DNA from: Pecten maximus
Taxonomy: Eukaryota
DNA: 64,000 bases
Assembly: GCF_902652985.1 (NCBI RefSeq)
Contig: NC_047025.1
Span: 6,386,001 to 6,450,000 of the forward strand
Direction of reading: 5' to 3'
Shown piece by piece: positions 16,565 through 63,188 of this stretch. Each line of letters opens with the position of its first letter. Position 1 is the first letter of the stretch. The position numbers were made by a program, and so were the translations under genes. Under the pieces are notes generated by a model. It was not told the origin of the DNA and made no database searches. It was given only the letters and a program-made list of their open reading frames with translations.

Positions 16565-17614
16565 TTTGTTTTTAGCTTTTCTGTTGCTTCATTGTTTTAA
16601 CACAATTGCAAAAAAAAGGTTACAATATAACTTTGTCACTCTTGCATGCCATAGGGGGTTTTACTTTTGGAGAAAACAGGAGTACCCAGAGAAAATTAAA
16701 CCCATCATGATGTTGGACCATCTGTCCCAAGGTATCCAGTTGACATTGACTTTTAGCAATTTCAGAAGTCAAATCACCTTTTCTCAGAAATATGAAGAGT
16801 CAAAACATTAAGTCAAATAGACATGCTCCTTCATACCCAGGAGTCAGATATGATTCTGGAGAGTCAAAAACATACTCTCAGGGGTCTACTGGATGTCCTG
16901 ATGACCAATACCTTTTTACCTTTTCAGGAATTGAATCCCTACCAGCTGCCTAGTTTAAGGTAAGTGTGCTGTATTACCACTGTGCCACACTTATAGAATA
17001 ATGATGTATTGTTCTACCTCTATATAGTTATCATATAGTAAGTTGTTATGTTGTATCTAGGCCTAGGTGAATGTATTAAAACCACAAGTTTTCATTGTTT
17101 TTTTTTTAAGTTTGTGTATCTATAGATAAGTAGTTAAGTACCGTTAGATTAGCTTTCACATGAAAAGTTAGCAGAAAAAATAATGTTTGCCTTAGTAGAG
17201 TATGTTACTTTCTGTATATCAAATGAAAAAGCAGCACTTCAATACCGAATACACATTGAAACTAGGGGCCGGTTGCATGTTAAATATTTATCCTGTACCC
17301 GTAGATTGCTAGCTGAACCTGTGAAACACACATTGTAGAAAAACAGACACATTGAACATCCCAAGACTGGAGTATTAAATATGTATACTATATAGCGTTC
17401 CATCATGCCCAGATGATCACGGATCAGGTGAAAAAGTATACCAGTGTAAGGCCAAGTATATGTACACAAACATAGCACGTGACAGGAAACACCTGTGTGT
17501 TGTATCGGTACGTCTGTATGGAAACAAGCGATTGTGTAATAACACCACACCAAATCATTCTATACCGTGATCATGTGGATGTTTACATTGTTTGTATTTT
17601 CATTAACGACTTAC

Positions 17615-17918
17615 CGTGAAGTGCAAATAAATGAAGGGGTAATGAATGGGGGACAGTTCGTCCCGCAAACGTAGGACCTTCCTCTGGTGAGCTAGAATCG
17701 GAGTCGGGAGAGCCAGCTCCCCGCGTGTTTCCGTTAGAATTGGGTATTGTCATTGTCCCTGGACCCGGCCCGAAACTCCCCAGACTCCGGGCCCTCAAAC
17801 GTGCACTTGCAGAAGAGGTTGCACCTAATGTCATTTCTGCACCTGTACCACTTGTGCCTGGTGCACTTCCCGAGAATGTCCGCACGCGGGGCGCACTCGT
17901 GCTCTGTTTTCCGCCCAT
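17615..17918 (-). CDS. ZNRF2: E3 ubiquitin ligase ZNRF1/ZNRF2-like, first coding exon (101 codons + 1 nt)
   Basis: MGGKQST N-myristoylation start, RVRTFS and RARSL basophilic kinase motifs, and C-terminal HSLPLHLFALH-G followed by a phase-1 donor G|GTAAGT. This matches the ZNRF exon-1 boundary just before the zinc finger. Downstream exons were not found. Confidence 0.85.
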
Positions 17919-18029
17919 TGTCACTACTAAGGATACTTTATGAGTTTATCCTTAGGTCTCCATAATGATCGTATACGGTTCTCCATGTATTTATCAAGAA
18001 ACCACCTTTGAATGAAGGTTTAGCCATTG

Positions 18030-28492: not shown

Positions 28493-29457
28493 GTAATCCA
28501 CAATTTGATTTTCTTGTGTGTGAAAATATCCCATCATAACATGGAATAGATTAATCAGCAAATGCTATTCCATTTTTTGTTCACATGGCACGAGGTGCCA
28601 GTGAGCTTATGTTATGGTGCATGAGTGTGCATCTGTCGTCCTTTATCCTTCCGTCTACTTTTAACTTTAGAAAACTATAAGCAGCTGAGAACTGATATTT
28701 GACCAGGAAGTGCATGGGAAATTAATGAGTACTTTGAAGTTTCCTCATAAAAAAGACCTTGACCTATTTTTAGGCTCACAGGGGTCAAAGATGTCAAATA
28801 ATCTTCTTCTCAAGATCCAAAAGGCCCAGAGAGCACATATATGGCCAGCAGGTACAGGGAAGAGTGGTATAAAGTTTCCTCATATATATGACCTTGACCT
28901 TTTAAATAGTTGTGTAAAATTTAACTACAACAGTTACTGTATTTATCCTCAAATTAGCCCCCCCCCCCCCCCCCAGTGTAAAAGTTAATTACTGTACATG
29001 TATTGATCCCAATATAAGCCCCCTCCCCTAGTGTAAAATATTAGTACTGTTAAGTACTTATCATCAAATAAGCCCCCCCCCCCCAAAAAAAACAAAACAA
29101 ACCAAACCATTGTTGGGAGAGACAACTGAAAAAGTAGGAAGATGATTTAACCTACCGGTATTTGAGTATTTTGCCATGATTACTGGAATATCCAGGTAAA
29201 TGATGCAGGCCCTCAGGGCCTCTCAATTCATCTGAAATTATTAAGCAACTTTTCTAGCCAATCAAAAGCAATGTTACAAGCAGCAACTTCTTTTTTATAT
29301 TATGTGATGAATTTTTTTTTTTTTTAAATTCGCCGCTAGAAATGCTTGTTTCAAACAGAAATTAAATACGATATTGAAGTGTTGAAGTGTTGAAGTGTTG
29401 AATGAAGTACAAGATGTAGTTCCTGAATTGATGCTCAGTACTTTGTTTACATTCCAG

Positions 29458-29717
29458 TGTCATGTAAGCGTGATACCTATATATTCCTGTATGAAGCAGA
29501 GAGGTATGAAGGAGTTTGGTAAGACAATCAGTTGTGCTATAGCTTTGTGTGTCCTCACCTACACTGTCGTGGCGGCCTTCGGATACCTGACCTTTGGGGA
29601 CGGCATCACCACAGATATATTACTATCCTACGATCCAGATCCGTCGGTGCTTGTTGCTGTAATCCTTATCGCTGTGAAAACATACACCACCTATCCTATA
29701 CTGCTTTTTTGTGGCAG
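29458..29717 (+). CDS. SLC38A7: SLC38A7-like exon 7
   Basis: CHVSVIPIYSCMK...FGYLTFG...DILLSY...KTYTTYPILLFCGR; AG|GTGAG donor. Confidence 0.95.
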
Positions 29718-29723
29718 GTGAGC

Positions 29724-31825: not shown

Positions 31826-32376
31826 GTTGTTATGATATGGAGTAATCTGGCTAATGTAATTGTTGGTACATAATTATAGGGAAGGAGGTGGGCGTATTAG
31901 TTAGCCTTTTGCTTTCAGTTCTGTTAAACCAATTTAAAAACATCCTAAATAAATATTACTGTATGTATAAAATGGAACGTTCGTTTTGTATATGTTCGTT
32001 TTGTATATATATATGTTTTCATTGGTTTCGTGGTTGCCGTGGACCCACAAATATAAATATAATTAATATTGTTGCATGTGTTAATTATGATGTTAATTTT
32101 ACACACAAAATAATTTGAAAGCTCCAAACCATGAAAATGTATGCACAAACATTTAATGTTATATAATATTTAAAAAAGGTAAAAAAGTAATGATATGTTA
32201 TTGAATAATTAATTGATTGAATAATATTGATATAAATAGATTTGAAATAAATTATTCTTTGAAGCAAGTTAACCCACCAAGACACTATGTGTAATTTTTA
32301 ACAAAATTACTGCATTAAAGTTTTAAATTAAAGTTTTAAATTTGATATTGTTTATTTTCCTATCTACGCCATTCAG

Positions 32377-32576
32377 GGCAGCGTTAGACTGTTTATGGGT
32401 GGATATTCGCCGCATGTCTTCTGAGAGAGTGGAGGAGACGGAGCGACCAAGGCGGATCATTGTCACACTGATATGGTTCTTGGCCACACTAGCGATGGCT
32501 ATTTTCATTCCTAACATTGGAGTAGTCATTCAGATTCTTGGTGCTTTTGCGGCAATATTCATCTTTGTTTTTCCAG
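32377..32576 (+). CDS. SLC38A7: SLC38A7-like exon 8
   Basis: AALDCLW...IIVTLIWFLATLAMAIFIPNIGVVIQILGAFAAIFIFVFPG; phase 2 to 1. Confidence 0.95.
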
Positions 32577-32717
32577 GTAAGAACTCACGAAATACAGTAA
32601 TGCATTATTTTTTGCAGCTCAGAGGAAATTGAAGTTTTATTGAAGAAACTATGCCATACCATGCTTTAAAATAACAGTTCACTAAATTGCAACTGTTCAC
32701 TAGATTAGGTAATATAG

Positions 32718-46714: not shown

Positions 46715-49057
46715 AATAATACACACATCTGTCGCGCCTTGTAAATTAAGTTTGACGTGATGTTATTGCAATTCGGCTGACTCCGTAATTACATCAAACT
46801 AACTTGTCTCATCTCGGCATATTCCAAACTGATGGATTGATACAGGGTACCGGGATTAGCCGTGGCTAGCCGATCGCCTTATATTGGTCAGACCGCCATA
46901 TTGGGGTAAAAGATGTCATCGAATGAGCTATATTAACATTTCTGATATCTTGAAATATTAATTTGTTGAAATACAAAGAAATATATATTTCTACAAAAGT
47001 GTATGATGTAAAGCATATATCACATTGAGCTTTACATAATTATAGCTATATGAAAATTGCGTACGATTATATTTGACAAATAAAAAATAAATAAATAAAT
47101 AAATTATTATTAGAGAGATCGAAACACGGTACCTTCACCTTGCTAATCCAACACCAATGTTGCAATGAGAATCATAATGTAAAGAATCAAAATAAAAGAT
47201 TAAATCATTGACAAGGAAACGAACTCCAAGAAAGAAAAAGATTTATGGTTCTTTGGATGAAATATATTTTTGAAAATACTCCAATCGTAATTATCTTTAT
47301 AGGTGGAACTGCCAATTTGTAACTTATGAAGTGGAACTCGTGGTCATCAATGGGATGTATACCTTTCAACTAAACTTAATCGTCAAGAAGACGGCCATGC
47401 AGAAAATATATAACGTGTACACGTACTTAACAACCGTACTTTAACATATGAATTTGTACAGCTGTTTTAATACTCACAGGTTTTCATCAAATGATGAATG
47501 ATGGAAAGAATGGAAAGGTGTATAGATTAATGTATATTTTGGCGATTTGTAAAACATTCTTGGTACCCTAGGGTCCGGGTTCATGGATCGCTCTCTGCAC
47601 CACAGGACTATGTATATCAAAGTCGAAAGCCACTATCTATTTCATTTGTGTTAGAATCACAAACATGACCGATCACTACGCGGATGTATTCCTTTAACAC
47701 ATACAGAGGACAGAAAATCACTCTCAAGGCCAAATACATTTAAATTTCATACCTTATTCAATTACGTTACTCAAAATGAACTTATTTCATTGACTAAATT
47801 GATTATTGATACAAATGAGATAATAAATTCACAATACTAATGTCCGTCCTATTTTACCATGTGTCATTGTTATCCATTACTTAGTGATCATATTCTCTGC
47901 ACTATCCTGTTTATGAGAATAAACAATTATCATTTTCATTGTCAGTCAATACCACAGTACAGCAATTGTATATTATTTGATTCACACATAAACGTATCAA
48001 ACTGTTTTTTTTTAATTAATCCACAAGTTGGCGGTGTCTGAACCTTCGAATTTACCATAACCTACCCAAGAGGTGCAGAGAGCGAAGGTGCACGAAGTAA
48101 CGAAGACGTTGAAACAGTTCGCTCAGAAAATGTCTGGGAAGAGACCTCTGATTAAAGATTGGGATATAGAAACAGATACACACCAGGAGGAAATATATAT
48201 ACAGTTATTGCTTGATTTGTAATATTGAAGGCGGTTTCGCGTAAGCTATATATTGCAGTTCAGTTCATTTCTGGCTCTAACGTATTGAACACTTAATTTG
48301 TGTTGAAAGGTGCTTGTTTCTTGTGTCTTTTGTGCAATGAGTTAATGACATGCATTTTGTTAGGAGATACAACGTCCTTTTTTAGATGAATAATGAATCC
48401 ACAAGGAATTTTGCACATGTGGAGGAAGAGTTATGAATAGAAATAATATGGCATTTGTTTCTGCATGTTCATTTTAGATAAGCACATGCTTAAATTAAAT
48501 ATGCAACCACTCAAGCGATAAGACATAAAAATATTAAAGACAAAAGTTTTAAAATAAAATAAAAAAAATAATATGGAATTCTTCTTAACTTAGCAAGCAT
48601 ACTATATATTAAATTTCAAAACATATGGAATCATGCCATCAATTCACATATACAACAAACATTCAATACACTAGGGTTCACATTTTTTTTCAAGATCATA
48701 AACACTTTCTTCTGTCTTATGACTCACTCTCCAAGATTCAGCACATTTTTCAGACTGATACATCTTATGTTTATAATGTTAGCAAAATAAATTCCATCAT
48801 GACAACTGCAAATCAATGAAAAACATGAAGTGGTGTGTTCGGGTCATTGAGGGAACGGATGATATGTGACGTCACTACCGAATACAGATGATCTGGAGAA
48901 AATCGATATCATTTGAGAATGTATTCCTGCAGATATTCGTGGTAAATGTTGACGTCAATGGTTTGTGACGTCACCACCGGGTATATATTGTCTGGAACAA
49001 CTGACACCATTTGAGAATGTTATCCTTCCAGAGATTCAAGGCAAAAGTTGACGTTTG

Positions 49058-49210
49058 TTAACTCTTTTTAGTCGACAGATATATAATTCCAAGCAGTCCA
49101 CCGAACCAAAGAAGACCGCCAATTATCACAGTGATTTGTATGAGCAGGCGCGTTCTGTCGGACGCCGCCATTGCTCCAACATGGTCGCCTATCGCCACGG
49201 ACCTCGTCAC
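49058..49210 (-). CDS. CD225/dispanin (IFITM/PRRT-like) protein, exon 3
   Basis: cag|VTRSVAIGDHVGAMAASDRTRLLIQITVIIGGLLWFGGLLGIIYLSTKKS*; GDxxGA loop motif plus C-terminal TM helix. Not in the supplied ORF frame. Confidence 0.88.
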   Translation of the reverse strand: MTRSVAIGDHVGAMAASDRTRLLIQITVIIGGLLWFGGLLGIIYLSTKKS

Positions 49211-49722
49211 CTGGGGGCACAATGTTGATAACGGTTACCAAATGAACACTGCATTTTAAATTCAATAGTCATGCTATCATTAATATTTATACCATTACTA
49301 ACAATTCGAATTTATTTTACTTGCGGCTAAAATGAATTCTAATTGTGTTTACAAATAGTAGTATGCGATAGTAACATATCATTATAGTGGATTGTTAAAC
49401 TGTAATAAACTTGCAATTTTTCAGTTTACAACCCTAAAAAATGTCACCCATTTGTGGAATATTTTTGCAACAACTTTAATGAGATAATTTCTGTGTGACA
49501 GATATTTCATATTTGTATAATAATATACTCTTCTGATGTAATCAGTGTAAACATGTTGACATTTCTGGAGAATTATTGGACACAATAGATATTAATTTTC
49601 AATTAGCAGCAGGAAGATAAACAAACCATTTCACAACCAGAAATGATATTTCTACTGGCATGGTTATTGCTGTTTAGAAATATCATTTTAAATGATAATG
49701 ATAATGAGGATAAAAAATGTAC

Positions 49723-49851
49723 CCTTCGAGAAGATATTATGCCCAATATACCAGTCGGAAAGAAGCACAAGATGGTGGCTAGTATTGCGCCGATCCGGTA
49801 GTGTCTTGGCGGTTGTCGAAGGTAGGCCACATTAGGTGCTAAGGCGGGGGT
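49723..49851 (-). CDS. CD225/dispanin protein, exon 2
   Basis: TPALAPNVAYLRQPPRHYRIGAILATILCFFPTGILGIISSRR|GT; PPxxY...C(F)xPxG CD225 signature; phase 0 to 0. Confidence 0.9.
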
Positions 49852-49998
49852 CTGTGAAAAAAAAAACGTAGTATAAGATAAACAAAAATTAAGAACGTAA
49901 TCTTATGACCTTCACGTAATAACAGAAATATTTGGTTAATTTAAACAATATTTTATCAAAATACACTTACACATATATACTCGGAAATATGTCCCTAC

Positions 49999-50031
49999 CT
50001 TAGCATCTATCGCTATATATCTGTCTAACAT
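49999..50031 (-). CDS. CD225/dispanin protein, coding exon 1
   Basis: ATG MLDRYIAIDAK|GTAGG, phase 0, with an in-frame TGA four codons upstream. Confidence 0.6.
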
Positions 50032-50644
50032 GTTCTCAAATCACGTCCGGATGTGACAACTCCGAGAATTATCGCTTTACCATGAGAAGTATTTCTCCAG
50101 ACAAATCCAGATATGGTAAACTCCGAGAATGAGAGCTTTACCATGAGAAGTAATTCTCCGGACAACAAGCGGCAGAAAAAAACAAATATGGTAAACACAG
50201 AGAATTTCTCCAGACAACAAGCGGGCAAAAATCATCCAGATATGGTAAACTCCGAGAATGATAGCTTTAGTATATATCCGGCAACAAGCATTAACCGTCA
50301 GTTGTACTGAACACATTTAAAGAACTGATATTTCAAATACGATATCGCACTTATGACGTAGTAAAAGGAACGAGAGATAAAATCTAGATAGTTAATTGGA
50401 TTTATAATACAGTATTGTATAGATAAAGCTTGGAGCAAATTAGCGTGTCTTTATTTCTAGAGTAAAACCAGGTCATGCGTGGAGCCATGCGATGCGTTAC
50501 TTAGTGTACTGTTGCCGGTTTTTTTTTGTAGTTTTAGCGATGTAACGACATGATATATATTAATCAATTTTCTAAACATTTTCTTGAGGTTGGAAAGTAT
50601 GATTGTATGTGAGGATTTTCGTAACACAACCAATTGCTGTTTAT

Positions 50645-50700
50645 ACGTGACGTTTCGATGACTACTACGGTATGTACATTGCCACATTCATCAGACAAAA
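50645..50700 (-). ncRNA. Minimal type I hammerhead ribozyme-like motif (Penelope-type), probably degenerate
   Basis: Minus strand ttttgt-CTGATGA-atg...cat-C-GAA-ACGT-C-acgt: canonical core with palindromic ACGT stem III and GUC triplet; stems I and II are weak. Confidence 0.5.
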
Positions 50701-51474
50701 CGGGGAAGAAATACCTTGAAATATCACCGAATTGTTTCCTGTTAATGACATTGTAAATAACCTTAGTTTAAACAGATTTTATTACCATAAATAGCAAAAG
50801 GATTGGGCACAAGTTTCACAAACATTATCAATGCCCTCTCTATGTAAATAACCTGACTGGCATCATATCTTTATTTATTCTTTCCTCTCCTCGCCAACAG
50901 ATTTCTTTCTTAGACGTTTCCATAAGTATTATGACTATTCTCTTTATTTTCTCCAAATAATGCAGATTTCATAAACAAGATATTCAAAGTACAAACATTC
51001 AGACGAGGGTCATATAAATGTAAATATATATGGAATTGGATTATTATTGATAATTAAGTGGTTCATAAATTTTAAACATTTCATACAAAAATCTTAAATT
51101 TATGAGTCTGAAATATTCAATATCTTCGTTTGACAATTCATAATTAAAGGTACTTAGTTTAAACAAACATTATTTATTCATTACTCAAAATAGTCAATAC
51201 ATGTACAAATATTTTCATGAGATGGGAAAACAGGCTTAGGGCTCATATTAATTCCTTTCTTCCCAACAAAGTATTAGCTAACCAAAGTCTAGTGAATCCC
51301 GTAGATACATAAAGAAATGTATACTCATATTTCTGATTAAATGGCACCACAGTCGTCTCAACATCTGCAGTTTGAATGCTGGTTGAGAAGCAAAGCATCC
51401 TATATTAATGTTGTGATTCTAGGTTAAACAATATACTGGTAACCCTAGGCCTACTCAGACATGTATATCGCCTA

Positions 51475-52067
51475 TTCTACCATGTTTGCTATGTAACGCC
51501 AGTTTTGATTGGTTAAAAACCATGTATTATTTTCCAATAACCCACGCTCGTGCCAATAATACACGCTCGTGAGTCACGGCTGTTACAATTTTAAATATCT
51601 AATATTCACCCGTTTCATAAAAGGCTACTATAGCCGAGTGGGCTAATGGGTTAGTCTTTCAATATATTTTTATCACGACGCGAGTTCGAATTTTTTTATC
51701 CTTTTATTTAATTTTCAAAATCAATGCCATATGATAGATGCTCTTGATCGTAGTACTGTATTGCCTATATATTTCATCAACAAATAATGCAATACTCAAG
51801 AAATAAATTACAAGGTTTTCCCGGGTTTCTTTGCTGTTTTTCTATTAGAAAGAGGTCGATCTCAGAACTAAACAGTACATGGTTGAATAGAAATATTCAA
51901 CTTTGACTCGTGTATTGTTGCAGGATATACAACTCGGACTCGGATATTTTGCAATTTTAATTAATAACTCAGGCCTGCGGCCTTCGTTATTAATTTAATT
52001 GCAAAATATCCTCGTCCTCGTTGTATATCCTGCAATAATACACGAATCATCGTTAATTATTTCTTAA
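51475..52067. mobile_element. Non-autonomous element ending in a long palindrome (51900-52050) with an internal tRNA-like A/B-box segment
   Basis: Arms tcgtgtattgttgcaggatatacaac...ggatattttgcaatt / aattgcaaaatatcc...gttgtatatcctgcaataatacacga around aggcctgcggcct; tagccgagtgg...gagttcgaat at ~51630-51690. Confidence 0.6.
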
Positions 52068-52570
52068 CTCACATCCGGAAGAATTATGTGTTACAGTATC
52101 ACTGTATAATTATAATTTAACACAATGGTGACATAATTTCGTGTTGTTCAACAATTGAGTACGTACACATACTATAAGAACACAATGAATATATCTATAT
52201 TAATGGCATTGCTATTATGTAACAATCTGGCGTTTAAGGTAATATGAATATATAGAGCCAGGCCACTTTGTAGTATATGAATTCCTGATTTCATCAGCGT
52301 TGTAATGTTAGACCTGGAATTAAAACGTTTCCACAAACATAAATAGATAGGCAGAAGTGTATTAAAACATTTCAGGAGATGTCTAAAATCAACATTTTTC
52401 AGGATAGGTATTGAACCGAACCAAAATTAACTACATTCATTGTGACATTTGGCCAAGACCATCTAGGATTATTCCCGGAATTTCTAACTAATTCACATCG
52501 TTGAAACTCGGAAAGAAGATTAAAGTGTGAAAATGTTAGCGACGGACAAAGTATTTGATATGCTTATACC

Positions 52571-52680
52571 ACAGGGACATGTCTAGTCTTAAATTAAAAA
52601 ATAGCCAGAAATACCTATATATGTCAATATATATAGGTATTTCTGGCTATTTTTTATTATAAGACTAGACATACCCCTGT
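52571..52680. repeat. ~110-bp near-perfect palindrome
   Basis: acaggg..atgtctagtctta..taaaaaatagccagaaatacctatatat / atatataggtatttctggctattttttatt.taagactagacat..ccctgt. Confidence 0.85.
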
Positions 52681-55600
52681 AGTTATACCCTGGAGTATGA
52701 CCAAACACAAAGCAAAGCTGATGAAATCTGACAACGTTACGTACATGTATATATAATACTCATACATACAGATGTTTATGATTGTCTGATTATGGTTCGA
52801 CTTCGTACAGCTGTAGATTTCATTTTTATTATTTAAACAGACCTAGGTTCAACACAAAAATACTTACAGAGTACCTGATTGGCCGCCTCTCATCGTCAGA
52901 ATCAGAGTTCGCCATTACCAAGCTATCATCTCAAATCATCATCTACAAATAGATACGGAGACAAACTTATTTTTAGAGATCGTATGATGAATGTGTCAAT
53001 AGTTGGACACAATGGAGGTTATTTTAAGTGTTACATCACCGAACTGTCACAGCTAGAGCGTATCATCATAGCCGCGTGCAGATCACTAAAATGAACATCA
53101 TGGGCTGATATTTTGAAATAGATGAAACTTTATGACAAAATATTGACGGAGGCCGAATGTCTTCATAGCCATGTTACGCTATGCTGTTGATAGTGTGGTT
53201 TATATATGAAACTATTTCCGCCTGGCACAAAGATAATATAGCACTATGCGTTGTAATCGTAAGCAATAATAATGAAATTAAGATATGAAGGTAAATATGG
53301 AAGACACTTTTGTAATTATGATTTAAGAAAAAATAAACGGAATATGGCGAATAGGGAAAACTTTGTTGATGACTATTATTATTATTACATTCTTAACGGC
53401 CTATTGACACTGAACATTATAACATAAGAGGCCGCTGGTCGGCTCTTTTTCTATCGGATATATGATTTTGCCTGTCAAAAGTACCTCGCCGTGTAAAACC
53501 TCTAACATTGTTGGAGTACTTACTCTGAAGACCCATATTCTACTATTGCATTATATATACTTAATAGCAAAGATAGTGGTACCGTTGGCTATAGTGACCA
53601 TCTTGGATTTCTGACCAACACGAAAATTAACAATACTTGGCCAGGACCATCTCAGGATCATAACAGACATTATAAGCACGTTTGAGATGAATCACACTAA
53701 AGTGGAACGTCAGAAGAAGTTTGAAATAGGCGTTGCTCAGGAAAACAATGATTGCGCAATCATGTAACAAAATGGCTGTCATGGCTGTCATATCAATGTT
53801 TTAAGAGGCCGATATTTGTTGTTGTTTTTTCTTTGTTTTTTGTTGATATGGCCGCCATGGATTTCGGACTGACATGGAAAATAACATCACTTATTGAGGA
53901 CCTTCATGATCATTTCTGGAAAGTTAGAGCTGAAAACAACTGGTAGAACTTGAAAAGAAGTGTGAAAAGTTTACGAACGGCGCACGTGAGACGACCCACG
54001 GCGTAAGACGACGGACGAAGCACGTGCATGACGCGTACAATGAATATAGATCAGCCTGACCATTCGGGTCAGTAACCATAATGTATAAGTACTGTACTAC
54101 AGTATATTAAGATAATATGTTGTCATAGAAATTATCTCTTTGATACCATAGCGTTTGCTGTCGACTTTAACACCTATACCGTACACGGAAGATGATAACA
54201 CAAAGCCGGTGTTATAGATTATTAGGCGTGATAGGTTAAAAATAGAATCACTGTCGGGTTCTCCCTCTCCGGTAAAGCTCTTTACTTACCATATATGCCG
54301 TATAAAGTATGCTGTATGTACAGTAATCCTGCCCTGATTTTAGTACACAGGCCGTCACACAATCGGTAGGGTATTATACACACATAAAATATACAATATC
54401 ATATTAGCCTTGGCCTAGTTTGCCATTATCTTACCTGACGATGGTATCAGAAGTTGACCCAATATCTGTAGGTCTGTATAGGTGAACCGTCCGTATGATA
54501 CTGAGATATTTAATATGTCACATGGCCGGTGTTTTTCCTTGTCACAAGACCACTATCAAGAATCTCGATCGATTTGTTAGTTGAAAAATAAATCTATAGT
54601 CTGTTTCACAATACTACATAACCGAAATCGATTGTTGAATTATAGGATTTACCGCACAGCTAAAGGTGACTTCAATCTAATACATTATATATTTCATTTC
54701 ACATATCCTATACATATACCTAGCTAGCATACACCCTCTCTTCTTTCAAAATCAGACTAGTAAAACAATTTCGCCAGCCTCCATTATTAACAAACTCTTC
54801 TTTTAAATTGTAAATGTTATCAGGGACATATGTTGATTCACAAATTAACTAGTTCGAGTTAGATAAACATTATTAACATTTAACAACCGTCAATCGTTGG
54901 GGAACATGTTTATTCCATAACGTCTTCACCTTAGTACCGAGATCAAATTCTCCCATTATATCAGCTCTCCTGTGAGCCGAATCACTTCGCGACAAAATAT
55001 ACATTTGTAGTTCGTTAAGAAGGAAAGTTTTTCATCTATTTTAGAGGAACGACTAATGTTTATGATAGTATATTCGTAAGATATGTAATTTTACAATGTG
55101 AAATATTAGTATGACTATCACTGCGTTTGCATCTTTATTAATAGGACACTTGTTGAATGACTCCGAGAAAATATTTAAAGACGACACTGCGAAGACGAGC
55201 TAAATATTAGACTAATCACTGTCAATTCAATTATCGGTAACTTCCTGGACTTGGTAGGTATGCTATCATTGTTTATAGTGTTTACACACAAGTGTCAGTT
55301 TTGGTTCGCCGTGATCAATGCGATATGACACATCGTGTATTCTGTTTTACATTAAATTATATTTATTACTACTCAAACCCCAGATTAACCGACCTTTCCA
55401 TAAGGATACCCCTCTCACCCAGTTATTCCAAAGTTAACCCCTGGTAAATCCACGAAACGCGTCCAGGTTGATGTTTCGAATGACACAGAGTAGTAAATGT
55501 AGTCCTTGGTCAAAGACCAGAGGTTAAACAATTTTTTGGGGTCAGAAATGACCAATCGGAGGCTTTGAAAGTTGCTAAACACCGTAGTGTGTCAACAAAA

Positions 55601-57066: not shown

Positions 57067-58281
57067 AAGGCTTTAACAACATTGGTGTGAATGCACCAGA
57101 TACAGTATACGTCATGCCGGACCAAATTACCACGGAACTGGACTTACCATTAAATTCCTTAGTGGAACGAGGCTACAAAGTTAAATATAAGCCAGAAGCT
57201 TGGGATGATGATAGCTTCTATCGTATTGTTAGTTCTGAAAAATGGCAGAGTTTCGGACATCCGAAGGCTGCAAGAAGTGAAATAGAGAAGGTACAAACGG
57301 ACAAAGACCATCTGTTATTCTTCCTGGCATTTGAACCAAAATGTGATACAAGTATCACTGAAGCCATCGATCTTAAAGAAAATTTGAAAAATGACTTGAA
57401 CACGAGCAAAGCTGCGAGGGCCATCCCCACGCGTCGTGACATATATGCAGCAGCCGAATTTCTTCAAAAAACCATACATATGATCTATTGGCACCCCAAC
57501 GATGTTCAAAAAGAAGTCTTCAATCCACCCTTTTCATCACACGGTGCAGACGATATCATATATATTCTATCAGTCAGTCAAGAAAACAAAACTGCGTTCA
57601 TACAGTTAACAAAAATGGAAGATGCTGCTGTTATAGATATTGCTAAACACAGTCAGTGTCACGGAATGACGTTCCGCAGATCATTTAGTCATCGACCTCA
57701 CGCTACTAGAGAAACAAACACAGAACTTAGCGAGGGGAGTTGGGAAGTTGACAAAAGCGTGGAAAAGAGTAAGAGGAATTTCCTCTTCTGTTCGTTGAGT
57801 AAAGCATTTTATGGAACACAGGGTTACCATTGGTACGTACGCGAACTCATAGTAAAATTTTTGCGAGAGGAGACTTTGGCTGAGGTTTTCTTTGAAAGCA
57901 AGGACGAAGAGGCTGATAAGGAAAAACAAACCTTAACAGAAAAGCAAAAAGTCACCAAAAAGAAAACGGAACGCGAAGAATATATATCGAGTTTACAAAA
58001 AGAATCCGTAGATGCTGGGAGGACAGAACTCTATGCAGCCGCGTTCATTTTCAGAACACGGGTTTTCGTGCAAAGACCTAGTCAAGATTACTGGGACGCT
58101 TACTTCCCTCTTTGCGTGCCAGAAAACACACGTCAACGATCTTATATTACCTTGGAAAAATTCCACAAACTACTTGTTTCAAGAGAAAGAGAATGCAACT
58201 GTTTACTGAGAGAACCGCCAGTTGAATACCTCGATAGTATCAGCAGAGAAAGACTGATGTCGTTGGCTACAAAGTTTGTTG
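57067..58281 (+). CDS. Pseudo-OTU x4 / ApoL fusion gene, exon 2 (OTU-like repeats 1 and 2)
   Basis: 1215-nt open exon, cag|AA ... G|GTAAG. RNFLFCSLSKAFYGTQGYHWYVRELIVKFL...EEYISSLQKESVDAGRTELYAAAFIFRTRVFV parallels OTU DGNCLFRA...YG...H..R...EEY...WGG.ELxA. Confidence 0.85.
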
Positions 58282-59429
58282 GTAAGCGTTTTCGCTCCAT
58301 CAGTAATGCTTAAGGGGCTTCGTTTTAAACAAAATGTTCTGGTTTTGCCTTGTTGTAATGCAGCATTTTTTGTTGATATCGGCTGTGGTGATATCCGGAA
58401 TGTTATCCATGTTTATATCTTTTATATCTGGACATACTTCGGATCAAAGTTTGATAAAATCTCTTTGATCATTTGAAGGATAAGATTTTTATGTTCATTT
58501 TCGTACTCATCTCTTCTATTGGCCCCGTTGGAGTGTCACGCGTATGAAGGTTTATGTTGCACGCGTTGTTGAAAAAAACCTAAACAGATTTATAATTGAA
58601 TAGGTGTATGATACTACATTTTGTTAGTTCTACTCCTTTTATAGATAGATGCGCTTTTATGGTGCCCTAAGGGCACTATAAGAATCTTTCCACTAGTTCC
58701 AGCTTACCCAAGTAGTCATGTGACCAGCACGAGACTTTAGTGTGGAAAAAACACCTCCTCTTTTCAATATAGTTAGAAATTAGAAAGAGATGTCATACAT
58801 TCGTCCAAAAATAAAAAAAATATATAGATATGATGGAGAACGTATTCGATTATTCATAAACTGTATGCTTACAACTTCGTTTTCTGATTGTGAAGACACC
58901 ATGCACTTGTAAGCTATGCGACGTCATCGTAATGAACATATTGCAACAATGAACAACAATGTACAATAATATATTTTTAACATAATTACACTAAAGAACA
59001 ATGGAGCGCACAATCGCATCTTCACCTTTTTGATAACTTTTGGAAAAATCTGCTTTCACGCAAGGCTGATTATATTGAAAAGTGTGTCAGATGAGTTAAC
59101 TGAGATCTTGCAAAGTCCTTCAAATTCACCCATGGGCGCAAATGTATACAAAACGTATATTAACCATGTCGATCAGGTACATCATGTAGATATGAAATTA
59201 AGGACACTTAAACTGTTTGACATCAGCTGCTTAACCTCGACTGTTCCTGCAGGTAACACACGTGACTGCTCACAACTAAGTTTTATAATAATCGTGATTA
59301 TAACATTTCCAAGATTGTTAGTTTTCTGTTTCTGCATAGGGATATTAACACTACATTTTGTCCCTCATGGAAAGCTATCAGACCTCAAAATTGCGAACAT
59401 AACATCTTTTGCATTATTTGATTATATAT

Positions 59430-60017
59430 GGTAGCACACTACAGTAGGACAGCCTGGCCATGGGCAATTTTTTTGTTAAGCAAATATATTATGATATGCA
59501 TAAAAATGAAAAAATAAATGTACACTATAATTGGTATATTCTGTATGAAGTAGTACATACAGGCTTCACATTTGTTAAAACAAAAATTAATAAATTGGTT
59601 CCGGCTTTTAAATTTCCGGATTTTCCGAAAGTGTGTTTAGATAGCGGAAAAACTCAATTTACAACATATGTCAAAACAAGATTAATTCTATCTTTGGAAT
59701 AGAGATATTTAATTTTAGATAGGTTTTAGAAAAAAAAATTGTGTAGAGAATGGTGTTATTTTGGGTCAAATATCATAATATTTTGCAATTTTTGAGCATT
59801 TTTTAAGCTGTTACCATGGTATTCACAGCTCTAAAAATCACAGAAAATATCGGTTTACTTATCCTTCAGAGCTGTATTAAAGTTGCAAATGTTGTACAGA
59901 TTACAAATATATATACTTTATTAGAGGTTATATGTAGGGTTACCTGGCAATGTTTACATATCTAAAACATGTGCCATATTTTTCAGAATTGGGCATTTCT
60001 ACTGTACACTGCTACCT
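59430..60017. mobile_element. Intronic MITE-like element (possibly Kolobok-type)
   Basis: Imperfect inverted termini ggtagcacactacagtag / ctactgtacactgctacc around an AT-rich interior. Confidence 0.45.
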
Positions 60018-60064
60018 ATATTTGTAATATGTATAGTGATTACATCGTTATCGTGGATTTTCAG

Positions 60065-60216
60065 TGAACAAAAGTGGCTCGATATGTTGTCCAACAACGA
60101 CGAGACACGCCGGACATCACAATCATTTGGACGAATTCTGCAAAAAGGAGAAGACCACATACAAAGCTAGAACAAAGATAATTATCTTTTTTTGCCAATC
60201 ATCAGATACTATTTAG
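60065..60216 (+). other. Orphan/alternative exon duplicating the Cys/His-rich start of exon 3
   Basis: ttttcag| then phase-1 frame VNKSGSICCPTTTRHAGHHNHLDEFCKK, similar to exon 3 VKTREQVCCPGEGRHGRHRHLDAFCQT. No GT donor after the motif before the TAG at 60214-60216. Confidence 0.65.
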
Positions 60217-60258
60217 GCGTAATTAAGTAAGAATACAAATATTCGCTTTTATTTGTAG

Positions 60259-60777
60259 TGAAGACAAGGGAGCAGGTATGTTGTCCTGGAGAAGGGAGAC
60301 ATGGTAGACACAGACACCTGGACGCCTTCTGCCAAACGACGACGAAGATACAACGCCCACAAGACAGGCATATGCCTTCACCAGACGTCCCGGGTATAGA
60401 TGGAAGGACATTGGACAAAGTATCCGGAGAAAGTGCTACCTTCCAACATTGTCTCCACAAACTGATATACGGAACCGATGAAGTTTCTGAAGACTTTGAG
60501 GTACGGGAAGAAGCTCCCGATAAAAACTACCTAGAGTGTATAGCACAATGGCTCCAGAAAAGCATTTTCGTTTATTCTTCATTGTCTAGTTCATGGGAGG
60601 TCTACAATCCCGACGAAGGTTCAGACATCGAGAAATATTTGACTGGAGAAAGGAAGAAATGCCGGTATTACATTACCCTTTTCTACGACCACTGTGCTGA
60701 CAGATACGACATCATCACTCCCTTAGAGGGCTGCAATTGTGCATTGAGGCCACCAACGTTTGATAAAAGCAATTCAG
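60259..60777 (+). CDS. Pseudo-OTU x4 / ApoL fusion gene, exon 3 (OTU-like repeat 3, internally shortened)
   Basis: ttgtag|TG ... G|GTAAG, 519 nt; KVSGESATFQHCLHKLIYGT...LECIAQWLQKSIFVYS...YITLFYDHCADRYDII...CNC. Confidence 0.85.
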
Positions 60778-61253
60778 GTAAGATCTGTACTTATGCAATT
60801 TAATTAGATGCTATTGTTAATGTCATTTTTACATTCTTAACGACCCAGCAACATCAATACCGCTAAAATTATGCATACATAAATCGTTGTAATTATAGAG
60901 TGATGCGACCTGAAACGGAATTGAAATATTATTGTTTTGCGATTATTTAGGTTCATGGATCTACAAAACAGGAATGCAGACACTTTTGATTTTCGTAACT
61001 AAGAGAAAGTTTTAGTTTTGTGATATTTTAAATGATAGAATGCCTCATAATGTTTTCCAACAGTGATGATTACAGTCATAGTCGCTTTAATTTACCTCCT
61101 CACTTGATCCATATACACGATAACGTAAGCGGCGTATATACATGTACTATAAAAATGCCGGTTAATGAATGTGAAGACAAATGTACCTTCAAAATGTAAA
61201 AATCATATTGGTAGGAAATAGATAAACAGTAATAATTTAATTTTTATTAATAG

Positions 61254-62021
61254 ATGAAAAACGGTTCATTCGGAAAGAAGACAGACATAATCCTCTCGTG
61301 GAATTCTTTTTGGACGATGGTGTCAATAACTGCTTCAGCGATGAAAAACAAAAAATCTTGCCGACGGAGGGAGGTTGGCAAATATGTGAAGCATATCGTC
61401 GACCAGATATGAAATTTCGTGAAGTAGATGAAGGGCATGGTACACATACCTTGTTCACATGTATCAGCATGGAGATATTTGGGAATGAAGAACAAGCTGC
61501 AAAAATTGAAGAGCTAGTTACCAAAGAAATGCTAGAGAATGCTGGGATATACGTCAGCTTACTCGATGTGAAATCCCGTTTGAAACACAGTACAACGACT
61601 TTGCAGCAGGAAGTTGACAAAACCCTGGTGCCTTTCCTCCTTCTCTTTGGTCATTTACCATTGCTTGCCGCAGCGACAGTATTTCAAACGCCTATCTACG
61701 TGTTGAAAGTTGAACCTACTGAGGAGAAAGGCTGGAAGAGTAGTTGGTGCTCATTTACACAGGTCAGAAGAAAGAACGCACCAAGAAATATGCCTTCTAT
61801 ACAAAGCAAATGCCGACAAGACGGGAATTCTGACAGTTATTACGTAACGCTTCTCCAGGATCCATACGGGAATTTCTTCCGAATCATACCAAATGGAGGA
61901 AAGGTATGCAACTGTCAGTTAAAAGAGCCCAATGTACCAGAAGAATATGTTTCATTTCCTCTATTGCCAGAGAAAATTCTTTCAAAATCGATTGCTTCAC
62001 AACGCCAACTTGATTGGGAAG
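61254..62021 (+). CDS. Pseudo-OTU x4 / ApoL fusion gene, exon 4 (OTU-like repeat 4)
   Basis: taatag|AT ... G|GTAAG, 768 nt; EVDEGHGTHTLFTCISMEIFGNEE...LLAAATVFQTPIYVL...YVTLLQ...CNC. Confidence 0.85.
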
Positions 62022-62412
62022 GTAAGTTTATTGCGCAGAAATTTAAATCACTAAATATTTTTTACCAAATGCTTATGTTTCAATTGCAATAAACACATAT
62101 TCAGCGTATCCATAAATTCTATAAAAAGATCATCAATAAAAAATTATTATTATCATTAAACATCATCTGCTTAGAATGTATCGTGACCCTTTCATCTAGA
62201 CGATTCTCGATCGAACGGGAAAAAGTACGCATATCACGTGTTCGACCACATGAGCTTTCTCTCTTACTAAGGTATCCTTCATCATTAAGGCCCGTCGCGT
62301 GCTTCCATCTGGACACTCAAGAGTAATTAAAATAAGTTCCAAAAATTGATTCACAATTTTTATACAATTGTCTCAAGATAAGCGTAGAGCATAATCGACT
62401 TTTGTTTGGTAG

Positions 62413-63188
62413 TTGCAGATGCTGAAATCACACAAAAATTCCGGGAGCTGGATAACGCACTGGGCAAAAACCTACAGAACCTAAGACAGATGAAGAAACT
62501 GGTATCTACACAACTGCTGATGTATGACGTTATCGTCGCATTGTTTGAAGGTCGACGACGCAATATCAATATAGCCTCTATAGCAGGTAGCTCCACATCA
62601 ACCGTTGGTACTGTGCTGCTCATATTAGGTATCGCCTTGGCACCTGTAACTATGGGATCAACATTGGGCCTGACTGTGGCCGGCGGGGTTATTTCTGTCG
62701 TTGGTAGTGCTGGTGTGATAGGTTCTAGGGTAGTCGAGGGCGCACTCACCAAATATCAACTCCGTGCTTTAATAGTTATCCATGAACTTTTGGATACTTT
62801 ATCGAAGGACGCCGCTCAATCAAACGATACATTTTTAAAGCTTGTATCCGAAATGGCGTCCTTTGTAGAAGGGGATGTGGGCGACCTTGGAGAAAATACC
62901 TCTGGTATCGGGCTGGGTATGTCGCCGGCTGTCGGGAGATTAATGGGCAGTTTTCATATTGTTCCTATCATTATTGCTAGGGCCACAGCCCAAGTATCCT
63001 CCATAATTGTCGGAAGCGTTGTAGGGGGTCTTTCTCTTTTCATAGACGCTGCAATCATTGCATATGCCGCTTACAACCTGAACAAGGGGAACAAAACGTC
63101 GACGTCAGAAATTATTCGAAAAAATGCACATTTGCTCAAAGCAATCAATGAGAAGCTAGAATCGTACGTACATGGCAATGTGAAGTAA
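62413..63188 (+). CDS. Pseudo-OTU x4 / ApoL fusion gene, terminal exon: apolipoprotein L domain
   Basis: NIASIAGSSTSTVGTVLLILGIALAPVTMGSTLGLTVAGGVISVVGSAGVIGSRVVE (ApoL LAPxTxG hydrophobic hairpin) and C-terminal GGLSLFIDAAIIAYAAYNLNKGNKTSTSEIIRK. Phase-1 acceptor at 62412 (alternative 62418); AATAAA at 63256-63261. Confidence 0.88.

What the first reader, a model, noticed from the sequence alone, without database searches (positions are those of the whole stretch)
57168..61900. Every OTU-like repeat has lost the catalytic residues in a different way
At the position equivalent to DGNCLFR the repeats read DDDSFYR (Ser), KRNFLFC (Phe), ESATFQH (Thr) and GTHTLFT (Thr). At the His-loop position they read TAFIQL, EKFHKL, DRYDII and GNFFRI. 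The structural motifs (YG/FG turn, xAAA helix, I-x-V strand, YITL strand) are retained. Long open exons with a conserved scaffold but no nucleophile suggest selection for binding rather than catalysis (pseudo-DUB, cf. OTULINL/FAM105A). Repeats 2-4 carry a Cys 3-4 residues downstream in the helix, so shifted catalysis cannot be excluded by eye.
Basis: partly seen in the sequence, partly recalled or inferred. Interest (0 to 1): 0.7.

Follow-up and report, generated by a model that had tools for sequence, protein, structure and literature searches.

The report
Four dead deubiquitinase domains on ApoL
An intact, spliced scallop gene, shared with oysters and pearl oysters, joins four deubiquitinase-shaped domains that lack the catalytic cysteine and histidine to an apolipoprotein-L domain, so these likely inactive domains probably serve as a binding module that aims or restrains a predicted membrane-attacking immune protein.

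Summary
The motifs are real. They lie in one intact four-exon gene (57114-63188, 1076 aa) that runs past the finding: four OTU-like repeats, then an apolipoprotein-L (ApoL) domain. The same architecture occurs at four loci of this scallop genome and in other scallops, Pinctada and Saccostrea. No window repeat has the catalytic Cys or His. The nearest active relatives are mollusc single-OTU proteins with the same Cys-x-Cys tail; one lies in this genome. 'Lost in a different way' is overstated: over 90 family repeats the site is Ser/Thr in 63 and Cys in 1, and it is nearly fixed in repeat 3 (Thr) and repeat 4 (Ser). The window's Phe is an outlier. The downstream (+4) Cys is unlikely to be a shifted nucleophile: 10 of 65 motif-intact relatives carry it beside a normal Cys-His pair, and it likely binds zinc. 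Best reading: a conserved pseudo-DUB module that aims or restrains a membrane-active ApoL domain. Ubiquitin as ligand is unproven. One paralogue clade keeps Asp-Ser-His-Asp in repeat 4, like fly Otu.

The parts
57114..58281 (+). Coding exon 1 (ATG; repeats 1 and 2), phase-1 GT donor
   Evidence: RNA contigs cover 57089-58281 in pieces, one ending at 58281 with 10 further letters; start matches P0001-P0003
57141..57671 (+). Repeat 1, OTU fold; Ser34 at Cys site, Ala161 at His site; no Cys-x-Cys tail, one conserved Cys182 (24 of 25 rows)
   Evidence: predicted model matches OTUD1 at Z 14.7, rmsd 3.2, 146 aligned
57735..58229 (+). Repeat 2, OTU fold; Phe223 at Cys site, Phe350 at His site, His loop four residues short; Cys226 (+3), His351; tail Cys361/Cys363
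   Evidence: Pfam OTU E 0.0019, below cut-off; Z 10.1 to a viral OTU, 11.2 to Cezanne
60259..60777 (+). Coding exon 2: Cys-Cys/His-x-His motif (397-409), then repeat 3 (Thr450, Arg538; helical lobe deleted; Cys454, 524, 548, 550)
   Evidence: RNA joint 60777/61254, GT..AG, in 2 of 4 runs; secondary structure of the homologue model
61254..62021 (+). Coding exon 3: repeat 4 (Thr628, Asn769; Cys632, 749, 781, 783)
   Evidence: RNA joint 62021/62413, GT..AG, in 2 of 4 runs
62413..63188 (+). Coding exon 4: apolipoprotein-L domain with hydrophobic hairpin (about aa 872-925) and C-terminal hydrophobic helix; stop codon
   Evidence: Pfam ApoL 42.8 bits, cut-off 25.9, E 6e-11; hydropathy; RNA cover

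Best explanation
The gene encodes four OTU-like repeats without the catalytic Cys and His, fused to an ApoL domain, and the repeats likely form a non-catalytic binding module that aims or holds back that domain's predicted membrane activity inside the cell. Shown: gene structure, two of three splice joints, loss of both catalytic residues, spread across three bivalve groups, purifying selection between paralogues. Predicted: OTU fold (structure-searched for repeats 1 and 2; sequence profile and secondary structure only for 3 and 4), and repeats 1 and 2 packing as one unit. Inferred: the repeats came from a mollusc single-OTU deubiquitinase with a Cys-x-Cys tail; Ser/Thr/Asp/Asn stay at the old Cys site because they cap the helix; the +4 Cys, a loop Cys and the tail form a structural zinc site in repeats 3 and 4; the ligand is more likely a protein other than ubiquitin in its normal site; the role is cell-internal defence or membrane remodelling, as for vertebrate APOLs.
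For: Intact 3231-nt frame and exon-limited RNA cover with two bridged joints. Cys at the nucleophile column in 1 of 90 family repeats; Ser/Thr in 63, Ser/Thr/Asp/Asn in 83. Motif-intact relatives keep Asp at -3 in 62 of 65, Gly at -2 in 65 of 65 and the groove Trp in 62 of 65. The family has no Trp at that column in repeat 1 (Pro, 24 of 24) or repeat 2 (0 of 26), and none among the six commonest residues in repeat 4. Each repeat position is its own supported clade across bivalve groups. All four repeat profiles score best on host single-OTU proteins, such as G000:C13 / Mizuhopecten LOC110453458. The exon-1 model has pLDDT 82.2 and pTM 0.84. The +4 Cys is in 30 of 30 repeat-4 and 12 of 13 repeat-3 rows. 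It never occurs with the strand Cys: 0 of 47, against 41 of 67 without it. No hydrophobic stretch in the first 40 residues. FAM105A lacks both activity and ubiquitin binding (PMC7862380, passages). APOL3 attacks membranes of intracellular bacteria (PMC13177371, section 9).
Against: No ligand, activity, location or induction was measured. The immune role rests on vertebrate APOLs. Model coordinates were not returned, so active-site and zinc geometry were not measured. The +4/strand Cys exclusion is not significant once relatedness is counted (3 independent pairs, p 0.5). The full-length homologue model has pTM 0.51 and a low-confidence hairpin, so contact between repeats and ApoL domain is not shown. 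dN/dS comes from one paralogue pair, one member of which has three frame breaks in the assembly. RNA support is one study at depth 2-8, and the first joint is not bridged.
Confidence: 0.55

Rival explanations
1. The repeats are an avid ubiquitin-chain reader that would bring the ApoL domain to ubiquitin-coated bacteria or damaged membranes.
For: They descend from a ubiquitin-processing fold, and four copies allow avidity. The acidic residue after the variable loop is kept in repeat 1 (Glu/Asp 24 of 24) and repeat 2 (24 of 26), and Arg at +3 in 20 of 30 repeat-4 rows. APOL3 acts on cytosolic bacteria.
Against: The groove Trp is gone. Repeat 3 has lost the helical lobe that, from general knowledge of OTUD enzymes, holds the distal ubiquitin. 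By eye the lobe is the most variable part of repeats 2 and 4, although ubiquitin is near-invariant. The window's repeat 4 has Pro at the acidic site. FAM105A does not bind ubiquitin.
Confidence: 0.25
2. Some activity remains, through a Ser/Thr nucleophile or, in the window's repeat 2, a shifted Cys226-His351 pair.
For: Fly Otu has Ser at this site, and its D37, S40 and H143 were reported necessary in vitro, though this is debated (PMC12012553, passages). The C6 paralogue and 3 of 30 repeat-4 rows keep Asp(-3), Ser, His and Asp/Asn. Cys at +3 and His at +1 occur together in 3 of 5 rows of the window's clade and are both absent in the other 2.
Against: In the window gene no repeat has His at the His site. 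Across the family His is there in 0 of 15 repeat-3 rows by gap-free count (two oyster rows have one two residues upstream) and in 5 of 29 repeat-4 rows. The +3 Cys is in 4 of 26 repeat-2 rows. The +4 Cys coexists with a normal pair in 10 of 65 motif-intact domains.
Confidence: 0.08
3. The repeats are a decoy for microbial factors that attack or bind the host's active OTU-CxC deubiquitinase, and binding would release the ApoL domain.
For: The active counterpart lies in the same genome. The family has four paralogous loci. Repeat 2 diverges fastest (43% identity to the tandem copy, against 66-73% elsewhere).
Against: Repeat 2 still has dN/dS 0.31, and no positive selection was shown. A decoy should stay close to its model, but identity to the active domain is about 23% (repeat 4).
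Confidence: 0.08
4. The repeats are a decaying passenger or spacer with no binding role.
For: The tandem paralogue has three frame breaks and the C6 paralogue one frame change between repeats 1 and 2 in this assembly. Stand-alone ApoL genes without repeats exist in the genome.
Against: dN/dS 0.21-0.42, invariant Cys/His sets, and the same four-repeat order in three bivalve groups.
Confidence: 0.04

Closest known systems
OTUD-type deubiquitinases (OTUD1, OTUD3, OTUD5)
   Same: Small OTU fold: Z 14.7 and 14.1 for repeat 1; profile match to OTUD5 E 4.8e-6.
   Different: No catalytic Cys or His, no Asp-Gly-x-Cys loop, no groove Trp; four copies; Cys-x-Cys tail; ApoL fusion.
Mollusc single-OTU proteins with a Cys-x-Cys tail (G000:C13; Mizuhopecten LOC110453458; chiton LOC135481922; Biomphalaria), uncharacterised
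   Same: Same helix, strand and tail motifs; best-scoring active relatives of all four repeats.
   Different: Single domain with intact Cys, His and Asp at the end of a long low-complexity protein; no ApoL match.
OTULINL/FAM105A
   Same: OTU fold with a broken triad, tied to membranes (PMC7862380, passages).
   Different: OTULIN subfamily, 220-270 aa domain (PMC3705208, passages), single copy, keeps His; Z only 7.2 here.
Insect multi-copy inactive VTD proteins (e.g. Drosophila CG32436, five copies)
   Same: Several dead DUB domains in one host protein, related to active transposon-borne DUBs (PMC9741609, passages).
   Different: Different DUB class; no ApoL domain reported in the passages read; here the nearest active relatives are host genes.
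Drosophila Otu
   Same: Ser in place of Cys; the D-S-H set matches repeat 4 of the C6 clade.
   Different: The window gene has lost the His as well.
Vertebrate APOL1-6
   Same: Pfam ApoL above cut-off; hydrophobic hairpin flanked by long helices.
   Different: About 820 extra N-terminal residues of OTU-like repeats; the best Pfam stretch starts at profile position 83 of 298.

Membership tests
Active OTU deubiquitinase | OTU fold | tested here: met
   Repeats 1 and 2 by predicted structure; repeats 2-4 by profile. Repeats 3 and 4 were not fold-searched alone.
Active OTU deubiquitinase | Catalytic Cys at the start of helix 1 | tested here: not met
   Ser, Phe, Thr, Thr; Cys in 1 of 90 family repeats.
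Active OTU deubiquitinase | Catalytic His on the last strand | tested here: not met
   Ala, Phe, Arg, Asn.
Active OTU deubiquitinase | Asp-Gly-x-Cys loop and groove Trp | tested here: not met
   62-65 of 65 in motif-intact relatives; Trp absent and loop variable in the repeats.
Active OTU deubiquitinase | Ubiquitin cleavage or probe reactivity | not testable with these tools
   Needs bench work.
OTU pseudo-DUB (functional class) | OTU fold with broken triad in an intact, transcribed, constrained gene | tested here: met
OTU pseudo-DUB (functional class) | Measured lack of activity | not testable with these tools
   Needs bench work.
OTULIN/FAM105A subfamily | Large OTULIN-type domain (220-270 aa) as closest fold | tested here: not met
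   Repeats are 125-180 aa; OTUD1 Z 14.7 against FAM105A Z 7.2 for repeat 1.
Apolipoprotein L | Pfam ApoL above the curated cut-off | tested here: met
   42.8 bits against 25.9.
Apolipoprotein L | Gly-rich hydrophobic hairpin between long helices | tested here: met
   Hydropathy windows at 872-923; helices in the homologue model, hairpin at low confidence.
Apolipoprotein L | Membrane insertion, channel or detergent activity | not testable with these tools
   Needs bench work.
Serine-nucleophile OTU (fly Otu type) | Asp(-3), Ser and His retained | tested here: not met
   Not in the window gene; present in repeat 4 of the C6 paralogue and 3 of 30 repeat-4 rows.

The most novel reading that the evidence does not exclude
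A bivalve-wide intracellular sensor-effector: four dead deubiquitinase domains read a ubiquitin coat or trap a microbial factor and then release an ApoL domain onto the target membrane, and one paralogue clade has kept a working serine-based OTU in repeat 4.
Probability: 0.2. Interest if true: 0.85.

Novelty: new variant of a known kind. Interest (0 to 1): 0.6.

Why it matters
Pseudo-DUBs and ApoL proteins are each known, but ten literature searches found no description of them in one chain. If the repeats control the ApoL domain, bivalves have a sensor-effector protein built from a recycled enzyme, of interest for invertebrate immunity and shellfish disease. The family also gives a natural series in one genome: an intact single OTU, a Ser-His-Asp repeat and repeats lacking both residues. 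That makes the debated question of serine-based OTU activity directly testable. Automatic annotation can mislabel such proteins as active proteases.

Tried and rejected
Complex prediction of repeat 4 with the genome's own ubiquitin gave no answer (score 0.00); it is evidence neither way. The full-length homologue model gave no Foldseek match at E<=0.001, and its VIA list barely tested repeats 3 and 4; its helical-bundle matches for the ApoL part are generic. The Atlas could not read the window's sequence; a homologue part returned OTU clusters at 0.90-0.91, a lead only. Single versus several losses of the Cys: unresolved. A transposon origin was considered, since the tailed OTU also occurs in PIF1/Helitron, hAT and LTR proteins; repeat profiles prefer host genes, so it was not adopted. 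Co-variation of the +4 and strand Cys failed a relatedness-aware test. An extra exon at 59091-59252 was considered; it has no RNA cover, and homologues join exons 1 and 2 directly. The first gene model had wrong boundaries and was replaced. HMM alignment dropped the repeat-3 Cys loop, so MAFFT columns were used. Segment-wise conservation and a sliding identity scan of the tandem pair were not obtained: lobe variability rests on reading alignments, and gene conversion on uneven dS alone. Three look-ups of earlier scan findings returned nothing. Literature searches for the fusion or for multi-OTU repeats (0 papers; 28: 8; 60: 4; 101; 113; 115: 5) showed nothing on it by listing. The FAM105A primary paper was not held. 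Whether orthogroup OG1538 of PMC8382680 is this family could not be told from its one held supplement.
Full report
Gene. The finding covers three exons of a four-exon gene on the + strand: 57114-58281, 60259-60777, 61254-62021 and 62413-63188. All introns are phase 1 and GT-AG, giving 3231 nt and 1076 aa with one stop. RNA contigs from four runs of one study cover the exons at depth 2-8 and leave unique intron stretches empty. They bridge joints 2 and 3, each in 2 of 4 runs; joint 1 is not bridged, though one contig stops at 58281 with 10 further letters. Of 11 RNA variants in the coding sequence, 6 change a residue and none touches a catalytic site; one contig shows a 1-nt deletion at 63114. 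Exon 4 matches Pfam ApoL above its cut-off. The genome is a scallop's: the paralogue on G000:C10 is 98-100% identical over its exons to P0004, which its source names from Pecten maximus.

Observation. The eight motifs are as stated. The Cys site holds Ser34, Phe223, Thr450 and Thr628; the His site holds Ala161, Phe350, Arg538 and Asn769. A profile of repeats 2-4 from four loci matches OTUD5 at E 4.8e-6, with its catalytic Cys on the Ser/Thr column. A profile of 65 motif-intact relatives scores all four repeats well above 250 shuffles each (partly circular, as noted). The predicted model of exon 1 (pLDDT 82.2, pTM 0.84) matches OTUD1 at Z 14.7 and OTUD3 at 14.1 over repeat 1, and a viral OTU at 10.1 and Cezanne at 11.2 over repeat 2; FAM105A scores 7.2. 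Repeats 3 and 4 were modelled only in the Mizuhopecten homologue (pLDDT 71.2, pTM 0.51). Their strand-helix order fits, repeat 3 lacks the helical lobe, and they were not fold-searched alone.

Family. The genome holds four such loci: this gene, a tandem copy 7.6 kb downstream with three frame breaks, and copies on C10 and C6. The profile search found 950 proteins at E<=0.001, of which the best 150 were examined. Full-length repeats-plus-ApoL proteins come from Mizuhopecten, Argopecten (three repeats in the record), Ylistrum, Pinctada and Saccostrea. Each repeat position forms its own supported clade across these groups (100/100, 98/91, 100/97, 99/93; catalytic columns left out), so the four-repeat layout predates their split. 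Against the tandem copy dN/dS is 0.31, 0.31, 0.42 and 0.21 for repeats 1-4 and 0.22 for the ApoL stretch; dS ranges from 0.40 to 1.52, a hint of gene conversion. Seven other ApoL hits in the genome were inspected; none has an OTU-like frame within about 10 kb upstream, and four of the five scanned match Pfam ApoL.

Was the Cys lost differently each time? Counting rows that have a residue in the column: repeat 4 Ser 28, Thr 1, Asn 1 of 30; repeat 3 Thr 11, Ser 2 of 13 (of 30 rows); repeat 2 Ser 9, Asp 7, Asn 4, Thr 3, Phe, Tyr, Cys 1 each of 26; repeat 1 Ser 8, Asp 8, Glu 2, Thr, Phe, Ala 1 each of 21 (of 26 rows). So Ser/Thr fill 63 of 90 and Ser/Thr/Asp/Asn 83 of 90. From general knowledge these are helix-capping residues. 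Near-duplicates are counted separately, and some rows are fragments placed by alignment. The window's Phe is a local outlier. The only Cys is in repeat 2 of the broken tandem copy, which also has His at the His site, on a shortened loop and without the Asp; it is likely a chance regain. Holding all 53 family repeats together is not rejected (p 0.325), but the free tree does not group them, so one or several losses stay open.

Active relatives. G000:C13 encodes a 556-aa frame ending in a single OTU with intact Cys, His and Asp and the same Cys-x-Cys tail, 75% identical to Mizuhopecten LOC110453458. Such domains occur in chiton and snail proteins and in PIF1/Helitron, hAT and LTR proteins. Of 226 domains aligned, 99 have Cys and His and 65 of these the tail. 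The top eight hits of each repeat profile among the 65 are host-type single-OTU proteins.

The downstream Cys. It is at +4 in 30 of 30 repeat-4, 12 of 13 repeat-3 and 11 of 26 repeat-2 rows, together with invariant or near-invariant loop and tail cysteines in repeats 3 and 4. Ten of the 65 motif-intact domains also have it, beside a normal pair. None of those ten has the Cys that 41 of the other 55 carry at the start of the next-to-last strand. This fits one ligand replacing another at a zinc site, but only three independent pairs exist and the test is not significant. A Cys-Cys/His-x-His motif before repeat 3 (13-14 of 14 rows) may be a further site. In the window's repeat 2, Cys226 (+3) and His351 co-occur in 3 of 5 rows of its clade; geometry could not be measured, so a small doubt remains.

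Mechanism. Shown are the architecture, the lost residues and the constraint. The rest is inferred. The repeats most likely bind a partner or the ApoL domain itself, and so aim or restrain it. Ubiquitin in the normal site is doubtful: the groove Trp is gone, repeat 3 lacks the lobe, and FAM105A does not bind ubiquitin (PMC7862380, passages). APOL3 damages membranes of intracellular bacteria through a hairpin flanked by long helices (PMC13177371, passages and section 9), which the scallop domain resembles. I put catalytic inactivity of the window's repeats at about 0.9 and the whole mechanism at 0.55.

A second lead. Repeat 4 of the C6 paralogue and of P0006, P0024 and P0037 keeps Asp(-3), Ser, His and Asp/Asn. 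Fly Otu has Ser at this site, and its activity is reported but debated (PMC12012553, passages).

Known work. Insects have multi-copy inactive VTD proteins related to Helitron DUBs (PMC9741609, passages). OTU subfamily sizes come from PMC3705208 (passages). PMC8382680 lists a bivalve-only orthogroup, OG1538 (82 genes, 5.5 per species), annotated as an OTU-like protease (passages); it may be this family, but its held supplement gave no members. PMC3342036 (passages) was not relevant. Databases already list both Pfam domains on P0002 without comment. Searches showed no paper on the fusion by listing; subscription journals are mostly not covered.

Verdict. A real, conserved pseudo-DUB-repeat/ApoL fusion family of bivalves; a new variant of known kinds; interest 0.6.

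Noticed in passing
G000:C11:6456772-6490161 (L004, L013, L014): Tandem paralogue with one frame break in exon 2 and two in exon 4, and a 29-kb intron holding long ORFs that look like LINE and DIRS elements (label recalled, not scanned). Its repeat 2 is the only family repeat with both Cys and His.
   Followed up: partly
G000:C6:9086842-9093097 (L016, L017): Paralogue whose repeat 4 keeps Asp-Ser-His-Asp; repeats 1 and 2 lie in different frames (break or short intron).
   Followed up: partly
G000:C13:17724548-17726218 (L023): Single-frame gene with an intact OTU and Cys-x-Cys tail, conserved in scallop, chiton and snail; an uncharacterised mollusc DUB candidate.
   Followed up: partly
L040-L068: Many OTU domains sit in open frames of up to 3200 aa, likely Helitron-type elements (inferred); 26 of 29 loci show both Cys and His motifs, without the tail.
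   Followed up: partly
window 60058-60162: Diverged duplicate of the start of exon 2 inside intron 1 (48% identity over 29 aa), with no GT donor at its end.
   Followed up: partly
window 59430-60018: High-copy repeat in intron 1, with very high contig depth in all runs.
   Followed up: no
window 48000-54500, - strand: Spliced neighbour, head to head with the gene; one exon matches CD225 (interferon-induced transmembrane) at E 6e-5, below cut-off.
   Followed up: partly
window 29386-29718 and 32327-32629: Exons of an amino-acid transporter (Pfam Aa_trans).
   Followed up: partly
window 17583-17945, - strand: ORF that recalls the N-terminus of ZNRF-type E3 ligases (from memory; no Pfam hit).
   Followed up: no
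L074-L080: Seven stand-alone single-frame ApoL-like genes, three clustered on C1.
   Followed up: partly
P0002 and P0003: Two Mizuhopecten proteins have different repeats but identical ApoL domains: a shared last exon, gene conversion or an annotation artefact.
   Followed up: no
P0026, P0118, P0140: Other unnamed proteins with two or three OTU-like domains lacking the Cys, outside this family's clades.
   Followed up: no
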